This document shows positions 20,123 to 23,896 of a stretch of DNA of 64,000 nucleotides, piece after piece. How positions within the stretch are numbered: position 1 is the stretch's first letter; the number at the start of each line of letters is the position of its first letter. Location of the stretch: assembly GCA_964559355.1 (NCBI GenBank), contig CAZLHQ010000001.1, forward strand, positions 52,553 through 116,552, given 5' to 3'. Position numbers and translations under genes: made by a program. This DNA is from an uncultured Hyphomicrobiaceae bacterium. GTDB taxonomy: Bacteria > Pseudomonadota > Alphaproteobacteria > Rhizobiales > Hyphomicrobiaceae. The notes under the pieces were generated by a model. That model was not told where the DNA came from. It saw nothing but the letters and a program-made list of their open reading frames with translations, and did not search any database.

Positions 20123-23100
20123 TCACGAAACGAAGCGCCGAGACATAGAGCTGAAGTCTGCCGTAAATTTGGAACGTCGCGCACTGCGCTGTTCCTTTAC
20201 GGCTGCCCCCAATGAACCATTCTCGAATGCCAAAAAAACCTCTGCGTCGCTCTTTATGATATAACCAAGTCCGGTCCGCCTAACGAGCGCCGCAATATTG
20301 CCAGACGTCTCGGTCGTCAAGATGATCGCGCCGCTTAAAATTGCTTCATGCGCTGTGAATGAAAAAGTTTCGAAGCATGTTGACCAAAGAAAGGCGATAT
20401 CGATATCCCTAGATCTCATGAGTCTAATCATCGCCTGTCTATCGTCTGTGGATGTAATCACCCGCTCAAAAGTAATGTTTTTGGACATTGAGTTATCCTG
20501 ACCAAAATGGAAGAATTCGTAACGATTGTCCCCGCGAAATTGCGTGGCCAATTGTTTAAAGAAGGGCCAACCTTTGTGGATTCCTGGGTAGCCTAAAAAA
20601 GCGATTCGCACGGCCGTCGATGAATCTCTTGGGGTGATTGCCGGGACATTCCCCTCTTCCACTAGCGATATATGTGGCGCTACCAAGATGTCTTGATGTT
20701 CAAAATCGACTGCAGCCCCCCAGAACTCGGAAGCTGCCTCGGAGGGTGATATAATTCTAAATGGTATTGCAGAAAAAAGGTTTTTTACGCGCCATTGGTG
20801 GCGAGCTCTATCTGCTCCGAACGCGCAAATATTGCAGGAATTTGAGCTAATCGACGGGGCGCCGCAAAACGAAATTCCATTTCGCAACAGTGCATAGTTT
20901 GGGCAAATGGCAAACATATCGTGTATCCAAAAAATTGGAATTGCGTGCGGCATCGCCTTTGCGATCAACTCCAAAATCTCGGGGGAATGCCCCAATAGTG
21001 AATGCACAATGAAGGCGCATCGTCCCCGATTTGTAGAGGCCGCTGCTAGCGCTTCAATCAGAGTGCGTGCAGAAACGGCGCCAACGTCGACGCCGTTGAT
21101 TATTGCTTGAAACATAAAAGTTTCGGGGGCGCAATTGGGTGCTAGCATCGGTAGCGGCTGATAAGGATGTAAGCAAAGATAAGTGAAGCCGTCTTCGCGG
21201 AATGCTTTCTCTTCGGACTGTGCGCAAATCTGAAGTCCCCCGACGACGTTTTGGTAGTTGTCGTGAGTGAACGAAACGATTAGCCCTGCAGGATATTGAG
21301 TCGCATATCCTAACAATCTTTCGTGGAAATTCTGATTGCCTGCTGGTGATGCTGCATCCGATCTCTTCCAAATAACTGCTTGGGTCTCAAGTGGAAGCTG
21401 TTCGTCTAAAATCTTTAATTTTTGCTCTGTTACGGCATCTTCGAATAAAGAAAGAGTGTGACTCGGAGTTCTGGTGACTTCCGTTGGCACTCCACAAGAT
21501 TCGGTTAGGGTAGGTTGTGTGCTGAAATCCACGTTTGGCGAATTGGCTGAGTGCGACGACACAGTTGGCAATTCATACCGTCGTGAAGCGTCAGAGCGAA
21601 AACGAACAATTTCGATTCGCCTGCGAATGCCACTTACACCCTCAGCGCGGAATATTCGCATCGCCTTTTGGGCCGACGGCATTACACCCCCTCCGTGGCG
21701 GAGAGCCACGGGGACGGCGCCAACCAATCCGCCAATAGAAAGTCGAAAGCGTTTGATTGCCCTAACGGGCTTTGTGAGCCTCCAAGAGGTTGAATTTCTG
21801 TACGTGTCGTGTATCACATCAGTTTCTTGCCGAACTCGAGCGATCAATTTCTGCGCTGATACAATCTCGTCGCGATGAGTTGATGTCAGGTCGTCTCGCT
21901 CAGACTTCCAGCACTCAATGGTTTGTCTCAGCTGGTGCTCCAACTCCGCGATTCGGCTGTCCGCTTCTCGAAGCTGACGCTCAAGTTCGTCGTTCAGATT
22001 TGCTGCATGCACACGCCGTTTGTCTGCCACCTGAAGAGTCTCTCGCGGCTGCATTTCGGCGGCCCCGAGTGCGATCGCCCTGGATTCAACAAGGCTTGTC
22101 AATTCTTGAATTATACGCTCTTTCTCACTCGCCTGAATATCGATGGTGTCGCGCGCGGCCGTAAGCTTTGATACCTCGATCTCAAGGCCATTTTTCTCGG
22201 ATTGAAGCATTGTCCGCTGTTGACTGAGATGTGCGATCTCGGTCGCGCTGTCGCGAAGTGATGCTTCGAACTTCGCGGTTCTCTCAAGTTCGGCTGCGAT
22301 GCGAGCTTCTTTGCCTTCGAGAACTTTGCCAAGTGCAGACAAGCGCGTTTCGAGTTGGACTCTTTGAGATTGCAGCTGCGCAATGACTTCTTCGCGGTCA
22401 CGTATCGACTGTTCGGCCTTGCTGGTCTGCTCCGTTGCTGCATCGAGTGCGACCAGCTTGTCATCTACCAGCTTCTGCAAATCGGCGATGCGCTCCTGGA
22501 GTACTTGCTTTTCTGCCTCCAGATTGCGCAGCGATTGATCGCGCTGCTGAACTGCTTCGTTTGCTGCGTTGGCTTGCGCAAGGCGCGCCTGCAGTTCCTC
22601 TTCCTTTTCGCTCAGCGACCTTGCAAGGTCGGCCGATTTGGCCTGGTGCTGTTGGACGTCATTGCTCAGGTGGAGAGCGATTTGCTCTTGATGGCGCAAG
22701 GCGCTGGAGGCGTCGCCAACTTGCCGCGTCAATTCAACCAGAGAAGCGTCTCGCGCAATCAACGTGCTTTTGACGGCCGCTATTTCAGTCTGCAACGACT
22801 CGATGCGTTGTTTGTGGTCGACTTCCGCGGCCTCTAGCACCGTAATTAATTGTGTCGTCTCGGCTTCACGTTTCTGACTGACGTGTTCTGCTTCGGCCAG
22901 ATTCCGTGAGAGCCTGTCATTGGAGAACGCTTTGGCGCTATCGAGGAGGCCGAAGATCAATGGCGATGCACTGTTGAAGCTGCTGCGGATTTCATCGAGT
23001 TGGCTCAGTGCATTTTTCGATGCGGATTCTTGCTCCAAAATTCGCAGCGCGCTGTAGGCATCGCTGATCCATCCGCGCAACATTGGGTTGTGGATGACAT

Positions 23101-23500
23101 CGACCGCCGAGCTCGCAAAGTTGCGTTGTTTGGGCGTAATGAATTCCTCGACAAGCGTGGCGATTTCGTCGGGTCCATAAAGGAACTCGACCATCCCCGT
23201 GTGGGCAATTTTGCGCAATTGCGCGCGCCAATCTTTCATTATGGATTCGTAGCTGACGATGACGCGTGGGTGGCTGCGCGTTCGCCAATCCGCATCCAGC
23301 ATATGCCGTAGCCAGACGAGCGCGCTATCGGCGTCCGTGTGGTCTTCAGGCAGGTAGAGCCCGCGCTTGTCGATCGATGAAATCACGTCCAGTGGGTTGC
23401 GCAGAGCGATCAGTGGCACCACGCGCACACCTGCGTGCTCGAGCGTTTCGATAATCAGATCAGCGAAGCGGCTAATGCGCGGATCCTTTAGAACGAACAA
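20123..23500 (-). CDS. Distal part of the sulfotransferase / long coiled coil / GT4 glycosyltransferase fusion, continuing ORF 23606..23896 across an in-frame TAG
   Basis: KDPRISRF and ALRNPLDVISS (3'-PB-like). About 370 aa of heptad-like E/Q/L/R/A-rich sequence (about nt 21806-22918) ends in NSTSWRLTKPVR. The C-terminal GT-B motif is ETFSFTAHEAILSGAIIL, with a Cys cluster CPNYALLRNGISFCGAPSISSNSCNIC. The track's 'M' at 23500 is an internal TTG. Confidence 0.75.
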   Translation of the reverse strand: MFVLKDPRISRFADLIIETLEHAGVRVVPLIALRNPLDVISSIDKRGLYLPEDHTDADSALVWLRHMLDADWRTRSHPRVIVSYESIMKDWRAQLRKIAHTGMVEFLYGPDEIATLVEEFITPKQRNFASSAVDVIHNPMLRGWISDAYSALRILEQESASKNALSQLDEIRSSFNSASPLIFGLLDSAKAFSNDRLSRNLAEAEHVSQKREAETTQLITVLEAAEVDHKQRIESLQTEIAAVKSTLIARDASLVELTRQVGDASSALRHQEQIALHLSNDVQQHQAKSADLARSLSEKEEELQARLAQANAANEAVQQRDQSLRNLEAEKQVLQERIADLQKLVDDKLVALDAATEQTSKAEQSIRDREEVIAQLQSQRVQLETRLSALGKVLEGKEARIAAELERTAKFEASLRDSATEIAHLSQQRTMLQSEKNGLEIEVSKLTAARDTIDIQASEKERIIQELTSLVESRAIALGAAEMQPRETLQVADKRRVHAANLNDELERQLREADSRIAELEHQLRQTIECWKSERDDLTSTHRDEIVSAQKLIARVRQETDVIHDTYRNSTSWRLTKPVRAIKRFRLSIGGLVGAVPVALRHGGGVMPSAQKAMRIFRAEGVSGIRRRIEIVRFRSDASRRYELPTVSSHSANSPNVDFSTQPTLTESCGVPTEVTRTPSHTLSLFEDAVTEQKLKILDEQLPLETQAVIWKRSDAASPAGNQNFHERLLGYATQYPAGLIVSFTHDNYQNVVGGLQICAQSEEKAFREDGFTYLCLHPYQPLPMLAPNCAPETFMFQAIINGVDVGAVSARTLIEALAAASTNRGRCAFIVHSLLGHSPEILELIAKAMPHAIPIFWIHDMFAICPNYALLRNGISFCGAPSISSNSCNICAFGADRARHQWRVKNLFSAIPFRIISPSEAASEFWGAAVDFEHQDILVAPHISLVEEGNVPAITPRDSSTAVRIAFLGYPGIHKGWPFFKQLATQFRGDNRYEFFHFGQDNSMSKNITFERVITSTDDRQAMIRLMRSRDIDIAFLWSTCFETFSFTAHEAILSGAIILTTETSGNIAALVRRTGLGYIIKSDAEVFLAFENGSLGAAVKEQRSARRSKFTADFSSMSRRFVS

Positions 23501-23605
23501 GGAAGCGTCGCCAAAATCATCCGCAATGATGGAGCCGATGTCGCGTTCCAGAGCATCGCGACCGCGTGGGCCGAACTTCGAGAAATCCGGCTGGCGCCAG
23601 TCATG

Positions 23606-23896
23606 CTAAGAGGATTTAATCTCCGCTAATAAGCGATCGTGGTACTGCACCAGCGCGCTTGGTTCCCAGTGCCCAGACTCATTGCCTTGCCCGGCTGCCA
23701 TCAGGCGCTTTGGCAGAGTGGCTCCGGCAATCGCCAAAATACGCGTCAGCATGCTGGTGCCCGAGCGATGTGAGCCGAGCACGAGCAAACAGGTGCGACC
23801 GCTGCCGGGTCGTGCGCGTCCAAGACCGCTCGTTGAAAGTTCGCTGTTTTTCGCGGGCACGTCGTAGTTCACGTGCTTTCTCCTCAAGTCTTTCAA
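23606..23896 (-). CDS. N-terminal fragment (PAPS 5'-phosphosulfate-binding loop) of the same sulfotransferase fusion, ended by TAG 23606-23608
   Basis: LLVLGSHRSGTSMLTRILAIAG..GNESGHWEPSALVQYHDRLL. Same frame as 20123..23500, and sense sequence continues straight after the stop. Confidence 0.7.
   Translation of the reverse strand: MKDLRRKHVNYDVPAKNSELSTSGLGRARPGSGRTCLLVLGSHRSGTSMLTRILAIAGATLPKRLMAAGQGNESGHWEPSALVQYHDRLLAEIKSS

What the first reader, a model, noticed from the sequence alone, without database searches (positions are those of the whole stretch)
20123..23896. Sulfotransferase / ~370-residue coiled coil / GT4 fusion: candidate sulfate-capping terminator on a molecular ruler
Read as one minus-strand frame (23896->20123, about 1256 codons) the product has three parts. 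(i) An N-terminal PAPS-type sulfotransferase fold, with the 5'-PSB-like loop LVLGSHRSGTSMLTRIL, KDPR, and the 3'-PB-like ALRNPLDVISS. (ii) About 370 aa of uninterrupted heptad-like E/Q/R/L/A-rich sequence (about nt 21806-22918, e.g. LQTEIAAVKSTLIARDASLVELTRQ and LQERIADLQKLVDDKLVALD), ending in NSTSWRLTKPVR. (iii) A C-terminal GT-B/GT4-like domain with a Cys cluster CPNYALLRNGISFCGAPSISSNSCNIC and ETFSFTAHEAILSGAIIL. Established ABC-dependent O-antigen systems use this logic with other chemistries. E. coli O9a WbdD is a kinase plus methyltransferase on a coiled-coil ruler, and its cap is read by the Wzt C-terminal domain. Klebsiella O12/Raoultella WbbB is a beta-Kdo terminator, a coiled coil and polymerising GT modules. 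Here a sulfotransferase occupies the terminator position. The locus also supplies PAPS, removes PAP and has a Wzt with an extra C-terminal domain. My inference is that chain length is set by the coil and the non-reducing end is capped with sulfate. I am not aware of a described sulfate-capping terminator, and that novelty claim needs a literature and database check.
Basis: partly seen in the sequence, partly recalled or inferred. Interest (0 to 1): 0.85.

Follow-up and report, generated by a model that had tools for sequence, protein, structure and literature searches.

The report
Sulfotransferase–coiled-coil–glycosyltransferase O-antigen protein, interrupted
A giant O-antigen assembly gene joins a sulfate-adding enzyme, a very long coiled-coil spacer and a sugar-adding enzyme, which suggests sulfate may be a so far undescribed "stop cap" for bacterial sugar chains; in this genome the gene carries a premature stop codon.

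Summary
The three-part reading frame is real, but it is not open. A TAG at window 23606-23608 (codon 97) replaces a Trp that is invariant in 28 homologues.

What the three parts are:
- N-terminal domain: a PAPS-type sulfotransferase by motifs, by a near-threshold Pfam hit and by predicted fold.
- Residues ~330-700: a proline-free, heptad-periodic coil.
- C-terminus: a divergent GT-B/GT4-like glycosyltransferase with an EX7E motif and a 4-Cys cluster. It has no Pfam model.

The locus is an ABC-transporter O-antigen cluster. It holds WaaL, an initiating transferase, Wzm, Wzt with a carbohydrate-binding C-domain, rmlABCD, an APS kinase and CysQ.

The protein is not a one-off:
- At least 551 species genomes encode this N-domain.
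- In 130 of 131 members examined a coil follows it directly.
- Some members stop after the coil (WbdD-like); others carry varied GT modules (WbbB-like).
- Seven of seven assessable loci, picked only for a Wzt binding domain like this one, carry the sulfotransferase at the N-terminus of the large GT protein (six) or as a separate gene directly upstream of it (one). An E. coli plasmid does the same with a different sulfotransferase family.

A sulfate-capping terminator on a ruler is therefore the best reading (about 0.55), but no chemistry supports it yet. I found no published description.

The parts
20123..23896 (-). Whole interrupted reading frame (1257 codons plus stop): sulfotransferase, coiled coil, GT-B glycosyltransferase. 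The likely true start is TTG 23896 or GTG 23872.
   Evidence: The intact 1250-aa homologue P0002 is 64% identical over 100% of the query.
23606..23608 (-). In-frame TAG at codon 97, replacing an invariant Trp (TGG to TAG is one G>A change).
   Evidence: W97 is invariant in alignment A1 (28 sequences). P0002 reads ...GSAWHDWRQ.
22907..23785 (-). N-terminal PAPS-type sulfotransferase-like domain (aa ~38-330). 5'-PSB loop GSHRSGTS (aa 41-48); 3'-PB R166-x7-S174; invariant E78, K137, P139 and R140.
   Evidence: Pfam PF13469 E 8.8e-6; invariant columns; profile against PDB best hits are sulfotransferases; AF2 model of the 80%-identical P0002 domain, pLDDT 87; Foldseek top 8 are all sulfotransferases.
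21797..22906 (-). Coiled-coil-like spacer, aa ~331-700.
   Evidence: One Pro, few Gly, almost no aromatics, 3.5-residue hydrophobic periodicity z 2.5-5 against shuffles. NCBIfam SMC coiled-coil-region hit aa 253-612, E 1e-10. A heuristic coil span of 282-704.
21602..21796 (-). Conserved post-coil segment: NSTSWRLTKPVR motif plus a basic amphipathic stretch (aa ~701-765). Candidate membrane or partner-docking element (inference).
   Evidence: Conserved in 12 homologues (link region). Strong 3.5-residue periodicity z 4.5 at aa 701-756. In several family members this motif is the extreme C-terminus.
20126..21406 (-). C-terminal GT-B (GT4-like) glycosyltransferase domain with a 4-Cys cluster, an HKGW motif and EX7E (ETFSFTAHE).
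   Evidence: 2100 library representatives at E<1e-3. Invariant columns in alignment A3. Homologue P0072 passes the Pfam Glyco_trans_1_4 cutoff. AF2 pLDDT 87. 179 Foldseek hits at E<=1e-3; the 50 listed are all GT-B enzymes such as WaaG, GtfC and BshA.
19068..20126 (-). 352-aa DxD-type glycosyltransferase-like protein. Its start overlaps the stop of the big frame. It is probably a further polymerase module.
   Evidence: 32% identical (E 2e-40) to the post-coil module aa 638-947 of P0003. The syntenic homologue in L002 has a weak Glyco_transf_8 hit. No Pfam hit for the window protein itself.
18318..19037 (-). SAM-dependent methyltransferase (239 aa).
   Evidence: Pfam Methyltransf_25, Methyltransf_11 and Methyltransf_31.
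17517..18272 (-). 251-aa protein, a paralogue of the 299-aa sulfotransferase-like protein, with a degenerate P-loop (HVGWAKCASTS).
   Evidence: BLASTP E 4e-7. Syntenic homologue in L001.
14016..17495 (-). rmlA (14016-14882), rmlD (14922-15884), rmlB (15812-16990), rmlC (16896-17495): dTDP-L-rhamnose supply.
   Evidence: Pfam.
12990..13928 (-). GT2 glycosyltransferase.
   Evidence: Pfam Glycos_transf_2.
11751..12650 (+). 299-aa stand-alone sulfotransferase-like protein (HVGLPKTGTSALQ; R120-x7-S128).
   Evidence: hhalign E 7.7e-5 against the N-domain profile; invariant motifs. Homologues follow wzt in L085, L088 and L089.
10804..11754 (+). 316-aa protein of unknown function, conserved directly after wzt in related loci.
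9350..10807 (+). Wzt ABC ATPase with a C-terminal carbohydrate-binding domain (aa ~321-485). The true start is probably near 9440.
   Evidence: Pfam ABC_tran plus Wzt_C, E 3e-23. Only the ATPase part matches solved Wzt structures. The 96%-identical homologue is 455 aa.
8452..9450 (+). Wzm ABC-2 permease.
   Evidence: Pfam ABC2_membrane.
7615..8442 (+). CysQ-type 3'-phosphoadenosine-5'-phosphate (PAP) phosphatase.
   Evidence: Pfam Inositol_P, E 8e-49. Assignment as CysQ is from family knowledge and context.
5660..7618 (+). APS kinase fused to a degenerate CysN-like domain (makes PAPS from APS).
   Evidence: Pfam APS_kinase E 5e-68 and GTP-eEF1A_C, but no GTP_EFTU hit. Sequence shows the G1/G3/G4 motifs lost and GLSGSGKST intact. 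The orthologue in L085 is in the same state.
22..5036 (.). Start of the O-antigen locus: a Polysacc_synt_2 dehydratase (22-1728, +), GT4 (1888-3084, +), a Bac_transf initiating phosphoglycosyltransferase (3130-3687, +) and a WaaL-type O-antigen ligase (3741-5036, -).
   Evidence: Pfam.

Best explanation
The frame encodes a three-module assembly protein of an ABC-transporter-dependent O-antigen pathway. In this assembly it would do so only if the TAG is read through or is an error.

Proposed mechanism:
1. The C-terminal GT-B domain works at the membrane with the neighbouring 352-aa GT and the GT2. Together they extend a rhamnose-containing chain on undecaprenyl diphosphate.
2. The ~370-residue coil holds the N-terminal PAPS-dependent sulfotransferase away from the polymerase. 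If the coil is one continuous parallel structure, that distance is up to about 55 nm (370 x 0.148 nm).
3. Only chains that have grown long enough reach the sulfotransferase. It sulfates the non-reducing terminal sugar, which blocks further extension.
4. PAPS comes from the locus APS kinase, and CysQ removes the PAP by-product.
5. The Wzt C-terminal binding domain recognises the sulfated end and licenses export by Wzm/Wzt. WaaL then ligates the chain to lipid A-core.

Shown here: domain identities, the locus type, the family-wide architecture and the co-occurrence statistics.

Inferred: the acceptor is the chain terminus; sulfation stops polymerisation; the coil sets modal length; the binding domain reads sulfate.

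In this particular assembly the sulfotransferase is cut by a nonsense codon after its PAPS 5'-phosphosulfate loop. If the TAG is real, the strain should lack the cap.
For: 1. Sulfotransferase identity.
- Pfam PF13469 spans the stop codon.
- Invariant GxHRSGTS and R-x7-S motifs.
- The Foldseek matches at E<=1e-3 are all PAPS sulfotransferases: TPST, CurM-ST and the olefin-synthase ST.
- The best profile-against-PDB hits are sulfotransferases.
- An APS kinase and CysQ lie in the same locus.

2. Terminator topology.
- 59 of the 60 proteins returned (the 60th is the truncated window protein itself) carry the domain, 58 of them at the extreme N-terminus.
- 130 of 131 members have a coil-like segment directly after it, 30-550 aa, median ~144.
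- Of 76 complete ORFs from species genomes, 29 are sulfotransferase plus coil only. Some of these end in the STSW motif, like WbdD. Another 29 carry varied GT modules, like WbbB.

3. Module swapping.
- P0002 and P0003 share a near-identical N-domain but have different post-coil modules.
- An E. coli plasmid has Sulfotransfer_2, a different family, then coil, WbsX, GT2 and GT4, next to a Wzt with a binding domain and cysDNC.

4. Linkage to the cap-reading transporter.
- I chose eight contigs only by Wzt binding-domain similarity (39-50% identity).
- Seven have the N-domain: at the N-terminus of the large GT protein in six, and directly upstream of it in one.
- The eighth is cut before that N-terminus.
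- Several of these loci also carry cysD, cysNC, an APS kinase or a Na/sulfate symporter.

5. Pathway context. WaaL, an initiating transferase, Wzm, Wzt with Wzt_C and rmlABCD are all present.

6. Selection. The N-domain is the most conserved part of the protein against P0002: 80% identity, against 68% for the C-domain and 51% for the post-coil linker.
Against: - No structural chemistry shows a terminal sulfate on any O-polysaccharide. I found none in the literature.
- Among related loci that have a Wzt, 26 of 34 have a short (~280 aa) Wzt with no binding domain. The family is therefore not generally tied to cap-gated export.
- The window locus has other possible cap-makers: a SAM methyltransferase (18318-19037) and a second sulfotransferase-like protein (11751-12650). 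The latter is itself conserved next to wzt in 3 related loci.
- PAPS genes are linked in only a few of the 61 family loci of at least 15 kb.
- The window protein's Pfam score is just under the curated cutoff.
- The structural model was made from the 80%-identical homologue, not from the window sequence.
- Coil oligomer state and continuity were not modelled.
- The gene is interrupted in this genome.
Confidence: 0.55

Rival explanations
1. Tethered decorating enzyme. The N-domain sulfates internal residues of the growing chain, once per repeat or sporadically. The coil is only an oligomerisation or scaffolding element of a polymerase complex. Chain length is then set by other means, such as polymerase-to-exporter stoichiometry as in Klebsiella O2a.
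For: Most family loci with a transporter have a Wzt without a binding domain (26 of 34), as in non-capped systems. All sulfated bacterial polysaccharides I could find described are sulfated internally. Pyruvate on Klebsiella O1 is a terminal group that does not control length.
Against: An internal decorator gains nothing from being held tens of nanometres from the polymerase. The coil follows the domain in 130 of 131 members. Forms with only sulfotransferase plus coil mirror WbdD. The binding-domain Wzt subfamily of this window is accompanied by the domain in 7 of 7 assessable loci.
Confidence: 0.2
2. The cap that Wzt reads is made by another enzyme of the locus: a methyl group from the 239-aa SAM methyltransferase (as in Aquifex or E. 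coli O8), or sulfate from the stand-alone 299-aa sulfotransferase-like protein. The coil-linked domain then has a different or accessory role.
For: Methylated rhamnose or mannose caps are established (PMC9445017). The locus makes rhamnose and has a methyltransferase. The 299-aa protein has both PAPS-binding motifs and sits directly downstream of wzt in L085, L088 and L089.
Against: In all characterised systems the terminator is the module on the coil. Neither the methyltransferase nor the 299-aa protein is conserved across the loci that share this binding domain. MT239 homologues appear only weakly in L091. ST299 appears in 2 of the 8 independently chosen loci (L088, L089), plus the near-identical relative L085. 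The coil-linked sulfotransferase is present in 7 of 7.
Confidence: 0.12
3. In this strain the system is dead. The TAG is a real nonsense mutation, the sulfotransferase is not made, and the strain makes no O-antigen or an aberrant one. The architecture is then informative only about relatives.
For: The TAG replaces an invariant Trp. The deposited annotation calls only the 1125-aa downstream piece. That piece starts at an internal Leu codon inside the conserved FVLKDPR motif and lacks the 5'-PSB loop. Loss of a terminator is known to select secondary mutations.
Against: It is the only defect in 1257 codons, and all other invariant residues are retained. It is therefore very recent, or a base-calling error. 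Reads are not available. This rival concerns the state of the gene, not what the gene is.
Confidence: 0.5
4. The N-domain is a P-loop kinase that adds a phosphate cap, like the WbdD kinase, and not a sulfotransferase.
For: P-loop kinases (PFKFB, adenylate kinase) appear from rank 9 in the fold search. The Pfam score is marginally below the cutoff.
Against: There is no Walker-A GxxxxGK[ST]; the loop is HRSGTS, as in tyrosylprotein sulfotransferases. The R-x7-S 3'-phosphate motif is invariant. All matches at E<=1e-3 are sulfotransferases. An APS kinase and CysQ are in the locus.
Confidence: 0.03

Closest known systems
WbbB of Klebsiella pneumoniae O12 / Raoultella terrigena (N-terminal GT99 beta-Kdo terminator, coiled coil, C-terminal polymerising GT modules)
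   Same: Same order of parts in one polypeptide: terminator candidate at the N-terminus, coil in the middle, GT module(s) at the C-terminus. Same pathway type (Wzm/Wzt with a binding domain) and rhamnose supply genes.
   Different: No sequence relationship: no PDB sequence hit at E<=1. The tip is a sulfotransferase, not a glycosyltransferase. There is only one GT module in cis, with further GTs encoded separately. The coil is much longer (~370 aa).
WbdD of E. coli O9a/O8 (kinase plus methyltransferase, or methyltransferase alone, on a coiled-coil ruler that recruits the WbdA polymerase)
   Same: A small-group-transfer terminator at the distal end of a coil. Many members of the sulfotransferase family are just domain plus coil plus a short conserved C-terminal motif, the WbdD layout. 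A binding-domain Wzt is in the locus.
   Different: Different fold and donor (PAPS rather than ATP/SAM). The window protein carries its own GT module. Ruler function and membrane anchoring are untested.
ORF6 of K. pneumoniae O7 (methyltransferase-kinase, coil, two GT2 modules, with another GT supplied in trans)
   Same: A mixed arrangement: terminator and coil fused to part of the polymerase, with other GTs as separate proteins. The polymer is rhamnose-containing.
   Different: The cap chemistry there is methyl-phosphate. The GT modules are GT2, not GT-B.
NodH and tyrosylprotein sulfotransferases (Pfam Sulfotransfer_3, PAPS-dependent)
   Same: Same Pfam family and the same RSGT-type 5'-PSB loop and R-x7-S 3'-PB motif. 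TPSTs are the best structural matches. NodH is a rhizobial carbohydrate sulfotransferase in this family (PMC11625862).
   Different: Those are stand-alone or Golgi enzymes without a coil or GT modules. Identity to solved structures is only 14-18%.
Rhizobial polysaccharide sulfotransferases LpsS (S. meliloti) and KpsS (M. loti)
   Same: PAPS-dependent sulfation of LPS or capsule in related alphaproteobacteria.
   Different: LpsS is a Stf0-family stand-alone enzyme. Neither is described as fused to a coil or GT, or as controlling chain length.

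Membership tests
PAPS-dependent sulfotransferase (Pfam Sulfotransfer_3, PF13469) | 5'-phosphosulfate-binding loop (P-loop-like, xRSGT(S/T) in this family) | tested here: met
   GSHRSGTS at aa 41-48. G41, H43, R44, G46, T47 and S48 are invariant in 28 sequences.
PAPS-dependent sulfotransferase (Pfam Sulfotransfer_3, PF13469) | 3'-phosphate-binding motif: Arg, then Ser eight residues later | tested here: met
   R166 and S174 (LRNPLDVISS) are both invariant. That this spacing defines the motif is from my knowledge of cytosolic sulfotransferases.
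PAPS-dependent sulfotransferase (Pfam Sulfotransfer_3, PF13469) | Score above the curated Pfam threshold | tested here: inconclusive
Many homologues carry precomputed PF13469 hits.
PAPS-dependent sulfotransferase (Pfam Sulfotransfer_3, PF13469) | Sulfotransferase fold | tested here: met
   AF2 model of the 80%-identical P0002 domain, pLDDT 87.4. Foldseek top 8 (E 2e-6 to 8e-4) are all sulfotransferases, TM 0.38-0.50.
PAPS-dependent sulfotransferase (Pfam Sulfotransfer_3, PF13469) | Intact coding sequence and catalytic activity with PAPS | tested here: not met
   The coding sequence is broken by TAG at codon 97. Activity cannot be tested with these tools.
Coiled-coil terminator / molecular-ruler proteins of ABC-transporter-dependent glycan assembly (WbdD, WbbB, O4 ORF7, O7 ORF6) | Candidate terminating catalytic module at the end of the coil distal from the polymerase or membrane end | tested here: met
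   Domain order in the window protein and in 130 of 131 relatives.
Coiled-coil terminator / molecular-ruler proteins of ABC-transporter-dependent glycan assembly (WbdD, WbbB, O4 ORF7, O7 ORF6) | Extended coiled coil | tested here: met
   Heptad periodicity and composition; SMC-region hit. No dedicated coiled-coil predictor or oligomer model was available.
Coiled-coil terminator / molecular-ruler proteins of ABC-transporter-dependent glycan assembly (WbdD, WbbB, O4 ORF7, O7 ORF6) | Partner Wzt with a C-terminal carbohydrate-binding domain in the locus | tested here: met
   Wzt_C E 3e-23. Reciprocal co-occurrence in 7 of 7 assessable loci. However, 26 of 34 family loci that have a Wzt have a short one.
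Coiled-coil terminator / molecular-ruler proteins of ABC-transporter-dependent glycan assembly (WbdD, WbbB, O4 ORF7, O7 ORF6) | Sequence homology to a characterised member | tested here: not met
   No PDB chain matched at E<=1, and WbdD and WbbB structures are in the PDB. The resemblance is architectural, not homologous.
Coiled-coil terminator / molecular-ruler proteins of ABC-transporter-dependent glycan assembly (WbdD, WbbB, O4 ORF7, O7 ORF6) | A terminal cap that stops polymerisation and is required for export; modal length follows coil length | not testable with these tools
   Needs glycan chemistry and genetics.
GT4-type GT-B glycosyltransferases | Two-Rossmann GT-B fold | tested here: met
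   AF2 pLDDT 87, pTM 0.88. 179 Foldseek hits at E<=1e-3; those listed are all GT-B enzymes.
GT4-type GT-B glycosyltransferases | EX7E motif in the C-terminal half | tested here: met
   E377 and E385 of the domain (ETFSFTAHE) are invariant in 25 sequences.
GT4-type GT-B glycosyltransferases | Match to Pfam Glycos_transf_1 / Glyco_trans_1_4 | tested here: inconclusive
   No hit for the window protein. Homologue P0072 scores 33.2 bits, above the cutoff of 27; others are weak. The profile against PDB gives only weak GT4 hits, E 0.07-0.9.

The most novel reading that the evidence does not exclude
Sulfation is a widespread, so far unrecognised chemistry for terminating and length-gauging bacterial surface glycans.
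- It is carried out by a large family of sulfotransferase-on-a-coil proteins, found in at least 551 species genomes. These span alpha- and gammaproteobacteria, cyanobacteria and Acidobacteriota, among others.
- In one lineage the cap is read by a dedicated subfamily of Wzt carbohydrate-binding domains.
- At least two unrelated sulfotransferase families (Sulfotransfer_3 here, Sulfotransfer_2 on an E. coli plasmid) have been recruited independently to the terminator position.
Probability: 0.45. Interest if true: 0.8.

Novelty: new variant of a known kind. Interest (0 to 1): 0.68.

Why it matters
Chain-terminating caps decide O-antigen length and whether the chain is exported at all. The described caps are methyl, methyl-phosphate, Kdo and, as a non-gating case, pyruvate.

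A sulfate cap would:
- add an anionic, PAPS-dependent chemistry to that list;
- explain why APS kinase and CysQ genes sit inside some O-antigen loci;
- predict a sulfate-recognising class of Wzt binding domain;
- flag hundreds of unannotated 'glycosyltransferase' genes as probable terminator-polymerases.

One sulfate per chain is easy to miss in NMR, so existing O-antigen structures from Mesorhizobium and its relatives may need re-examination. The hypothesis can be tested directly with an intact homologue.

Tried and rejected
I used the 80%-identical P0002 domain instead.
- A look-up of the contig encoding P0001, to name the organism, failed. The cluster look-up gave no names. The genome scan did not return the window's own genome. 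Pfam Alph_Pro_TM and the best Wzt hits point to a Mesorhizobium-like alphaproteobacterium.
- Searching for the Wzt binding domain alone:
  - the word-indexed protein search gave 1 hit;
  - the alignment was too divergent for a metagenome scan;
  - the plasmid tblastn gave one hit, which turned out to be informative.
- An exact-DNA scan for a TGG or TAG variant of the stop-codon region in metagenomes found nothing. Whether the stop is real therefore remains open.
- A PDB sequence search of the whole protein found nothing. Profile searches gave only weak, though consistent, hits.
- Pfam and NCBIfam gave nothing for the 316-, 352- and 251-aa neighbours.
- The kinase reading of the N-domain was considered and rejected on motifs and context.
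- The 2020 O-antigen review and the 2006 M. loti sulfation paper are not held in the library.

Full report
**1. The observation**

Translating 23896->20123 on the minus strand gives 1257 codons. The frame is interrupted once: codon 97 is TAG at window 23606-23608. The mechanical ORF list therefore shows a 96-aa piece and an 1125-aa piece that begins at an internal TTG. The only identical public protein is that 1125-aa piece (P0001).

An intact 1250-aa homologue (P0002) is 64% identical over the full length and reads ...GSAWHDWRQ at this point. In an alignment of 28 N-domains this Trp is invariant. The stop is thus a single G>A change at a conserved residue. All other invariant residues are retained, so it is either a very recent nonsense mutation or a sequencing error. 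I could not resolve which (one search found no near-identical DNA elsewhere).

**2. What the three parts are**

N-terminal domain (aa ~38-330):
- Pfam Sulfotransfer_3 matches aa 38-231, across the stop, at E 8.8e-6. The score of 26.6 bits is just under the cutoff of 27.
- The invariant columns are the two PAPS-binding elements: GxHRSGTS (5'-phosphosulfate loop, like PRSGTT of tyrosylprotein sulfotransferases) and R166-x7-S174 (3'-phosphate motif). E78, K137, P139 and R140 are also invariant.
- A profile search of the PDB gives sulfotransferases as best hits, E 0.008.
- An AlphaFold model of the 80%-identical P0002 domain (pLDDT 87.4) matches only PAPS sulfotransferases at E<=1e-3: TPST, CurM-ST and the olefin-synthase ST. 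P-loop kinases follow.
- The window sequence itself could not be submitted for folding, because the repaired residue is not in the window.

Middle region (aa ~331-700):
- It has one Pro, very few Gly and almost no aromatics.
- Hydrophobic periodicity at 3.5 residues is 2.5-5 SD above shuffles in most 56-residue windows. The flanking domains show none.
- NCBIfam sees only SMC coiled-coil similarity.
- It ends in NSTSWRLTKPVR, followed by a basic amphipathic stretch. That segment is conserved in a dozen relatives.

C-terminal ~430 residues:
- There is no Pfam or NCBIfam hit.
- An exhaustive HMMER search found 2100 cluster representatives at E<1e-3, mostly at the C-terminus of 400-1500-aa proteins.
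- Some of these pass Glyco_trans_1_4 (P0072, 33 bits).
- The family alignment has an invariant 4-Cys cluster, HKGW and an EX7E motif (ETFSFTAHE).
- The AlphaFold model (pLDDT 87, pTM 0.88) has 179 PDB matches at E<=1e-3. The 50 listed are all GT-B enzymes such as WaaG, GtfC, BshA and PglA.
- 'GT4-like GT-B' is therefore right, as a divergent, unmodelled subfamily.

**3. Surroundings**

The window carries a complete ABC-transporter-type O-antigen locus:
- a Polysacc_synt_2 dehydratase, a GT4, a Bac_transf initiating transferase and a WaaL ligase (22-5036);
- an APS kinase, CysQ, Wzm, Wzt with a Wzt_C domain, and two unknown genes (5660-12650, plus strand);
- on the minus strand, the big frame followed by a 352-aa GT, a SAM methyltransferase, a 251-aa protein, rmlCBDA and a GT2 (23896-12990).

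Three details:
- The 352-aa protein is 32% identical (E 2e-40) to the module that directly follows the coil in P0003. Polymerase modules are therefore fused in some relatives and separate here.
- The 'CysNC' protein has an intact APS-kinase P-loop but has lost the GTPase motifs. It has no cysD partner in the window. Its 96%-identical orthologue is the same.
- The 299-aa gene after wzt has PKTGT(S/T) and R-x7-S motifs, so it is a second, stand-alone sulfotransferase candidate. The 251-aa gene is its degenerate paralogue.

**4. Relatives**

Architecture across the family:
- 59 of the 60 proteins returned by the protein search (the 60th is the truncated window protein P0001) share the N-domain, 58 of them at the extreme N-terminus. 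Only P0002, P0004 and P0005 share the C-domain. The rest carry GT2, GT4, WbsX, RgpF or methyltransferase modules.
- A scan of one genome per species found at least 551 loci encoding the N-domain. They come from alpha- and gammaproteobacteria, cyanobacteria, Vicinamibacteria and others.
- Of 76 complete ORFs, 18 are under 450 aa. Another 29 are 450-900 aa (domain plus coil, several ending in the STSW motif), and 29 are at least 900 aa with GT modules.
- A coil-like segment of 30-550 aa (median ~144) follows the domain in 130 of 131 members.
- P0002 and P0003 have near-identical N-domains but different post-coil modules.

Context of the family loci:
- Of 61 loci of at least 15 kb, 32 have a Wzt-type ATPase within 10 kb and 25 have rmlB. 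Only 2 have CysNC and 3 have CysQ.
- Among loci with a Wzt, 26 of 34 have a short form without a binding domain.

The reverse test is sharper. I chose eight contigs only because their Wzt binding domain resembles the window's (39-50% identity) and the contigs were long. Six have the N-domain at the N-terminus of the large GT protein. One has it as a separate gene directly upstream. One is cut before that N-terminus. These loci also include cysD plus cysNC plus a Na/sulfate symporter (L087), an APS kinase (L090), and cysD plus cysNC plus waaL (L092).

The only plasmid hit for the binding domain (E. coli pKTa005_1, 28% identity) lies next to a 1787-aa protein. That protein reads Sulfotransfer_2 (a different family, E 1e-22), then coil, WbsX, GT2 and GT4. 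The locus also has rfbBDAC, cysD, cysN, an SLC13 permease and cysC.

**5. Mechanism**

In every characterised system of this pathway the chain terminator sits at the far end of a coiled coil, and the coil acts as a ruler. A Wzt binding domain then exports only capped chains (PMC11231755; PMC9445017).

The window protein reproduces that layout with a sulfotransferase at the tip. Its relatives reproduce both known formats, WbdD-like and WbbB-like. The Wzt binding-domain subfamily travels with the sulfotransferase while the GT modules change.

The best-supported model is therefore a sulfate cap added once the chain spans the coil, then recognised by Wzt. I put this at about 0.55. The steps from 'sulfotransferase on a coil' to 'terminal acceptor, termination, ruler, cap reading' are inference.

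The main rival (0.2) is internal decoration by a tethered enzyme. It is favoured by the many family loci that lack a binding domain on Wzt. A methyl cap, or a cap made by the 299-aa enzyme, is possible (0.12), but those genes are not conserved with the binding domain. Separately, there is roughly an even chance that the gene is truly dead in this strain.

**6. Comparison and novelty**

There is no sequence homology to WbdD or WbbB, so the resemblance is architectural. The enzyme family is that of NodH and TPST. The known rhizobial LPS sulfotransferase LpsS belongs to the Stf0 family and stands alone.

Nine literature searches found no sulfotransferase terminator and no terminal sulfate on an O-antigen. 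Recent primary papers list methyl, methyl-phosphate, Kdo and pyruvate as the terminal groups. An Aeromonas paper noted an unexplained sulfotransferase gene beside wzt and wbbB. The library lacks most subscription journals, so absence is not proof.

I rate the finding a new variant of a known kind, with interest 0.68. It is a coherent, widely distributed and directly testable prediction. It is unproven, and the copy seen here is interrupted.

Noticed in passing
window 5660-7618 (+): The 'CysNC' protein has an intact APS-kinase half (GLSGSGKST). Its CysN-like half has lost the GTPase G1/G3/G4 motifs and gives no GTP_EFTU Pfam hit, and there is no cysD in the window. The 96%-identical orthologue in L085 is in the same state. 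It looks like a dedicated APS-to-PAPS enzyme with a pseudo-GTPase domain.
   Followed up: partly
window 11751-12650 (+) and 10804-11754 (+): The 299-aa protein has canonical PKTGT(S/T) and R-x7-S PAPS-binding motifs but no significant Pfam hit, so it is a second sulfotransferase candidate. Together with the preceding 316-aa unknown protein it is conserved directly downstream of wzt in L085, L088 and L089.
   Followed up: partly
window 17517-18272 (-): This 251-aa protein is a paralogue of the 299-aa sulfotransferase-like protein (E 4e-7) with a degenerate P-loop (HVGWAKCASTS). It is syntenic with a 251-aa gene in L001.
   Followed up: partly
L083 (E. coli plasmid pKTa005_1, NZ_CP147085.1) 12627-17990, with L084: A 1787-aa 'glycosyltransferase' reads Sulfotransfer_2, coiled coil, WbsX, GT2, GT4. 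It lies next to wzm, a wzt with a binding domain, rfbBDAC, cysD, cysN, an SLC13 permease and cysC, beside an Aeromonas-type IS. This is an independent recruitment of a different sulfotransferase family to the same position.
   Followed up: partly
window 20126-21406 (-); alignment A3: The C-terminal GT-B domain belongs to a large family (2100 representatives at 50% clustering) with an invariant 4-Cys cluster (CPxY...FCxAP...SxxCxxC), probably a metal site. There is no Pfam model for it.
   Followed up: partly
window 21602-21796 (-): The (S/T)(S/T)SW(R/K) motif plus a basic amphipathic segment marks the end of the coil in many relatives. In short family members it is the extreme C-terminus. It may be a membrane-anchoring or polymerase-docking element.
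   Followed up: partly
P0002 vs P0003: Two metagenomic proteins share a near-identical ~320-aa sulfotransferase domain but diverge within the coil. Their downstream modules are completely different: the novel GT-B in one, and GT8-like plus GT4 plus methyltransferase in the other. This suggests recombination inside the coil.
   Followed up: partly
window 26875-28353 (+): This protein combines DUF2793 with a tail-spike or endosialidase chaperone domain (Peptidase_S74). DUF2793 proteins also lie beside the O-antigen loci in L089, L090 and L094, so the neighbourhood recurs without an obvious reason.
   Followed up: no
window 24745-26661 (+): A serralysin-type RTX metalloprotease lies immediately upstream of the O-antigen operon, on the opposite strand.
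   Followed up: no
window 35114-36064 (-): A TauE/SafE sulfite-exporter family protein lies about 11 kb from the locus. A possible link to sulfur handling was not examined.
   Followed up: no
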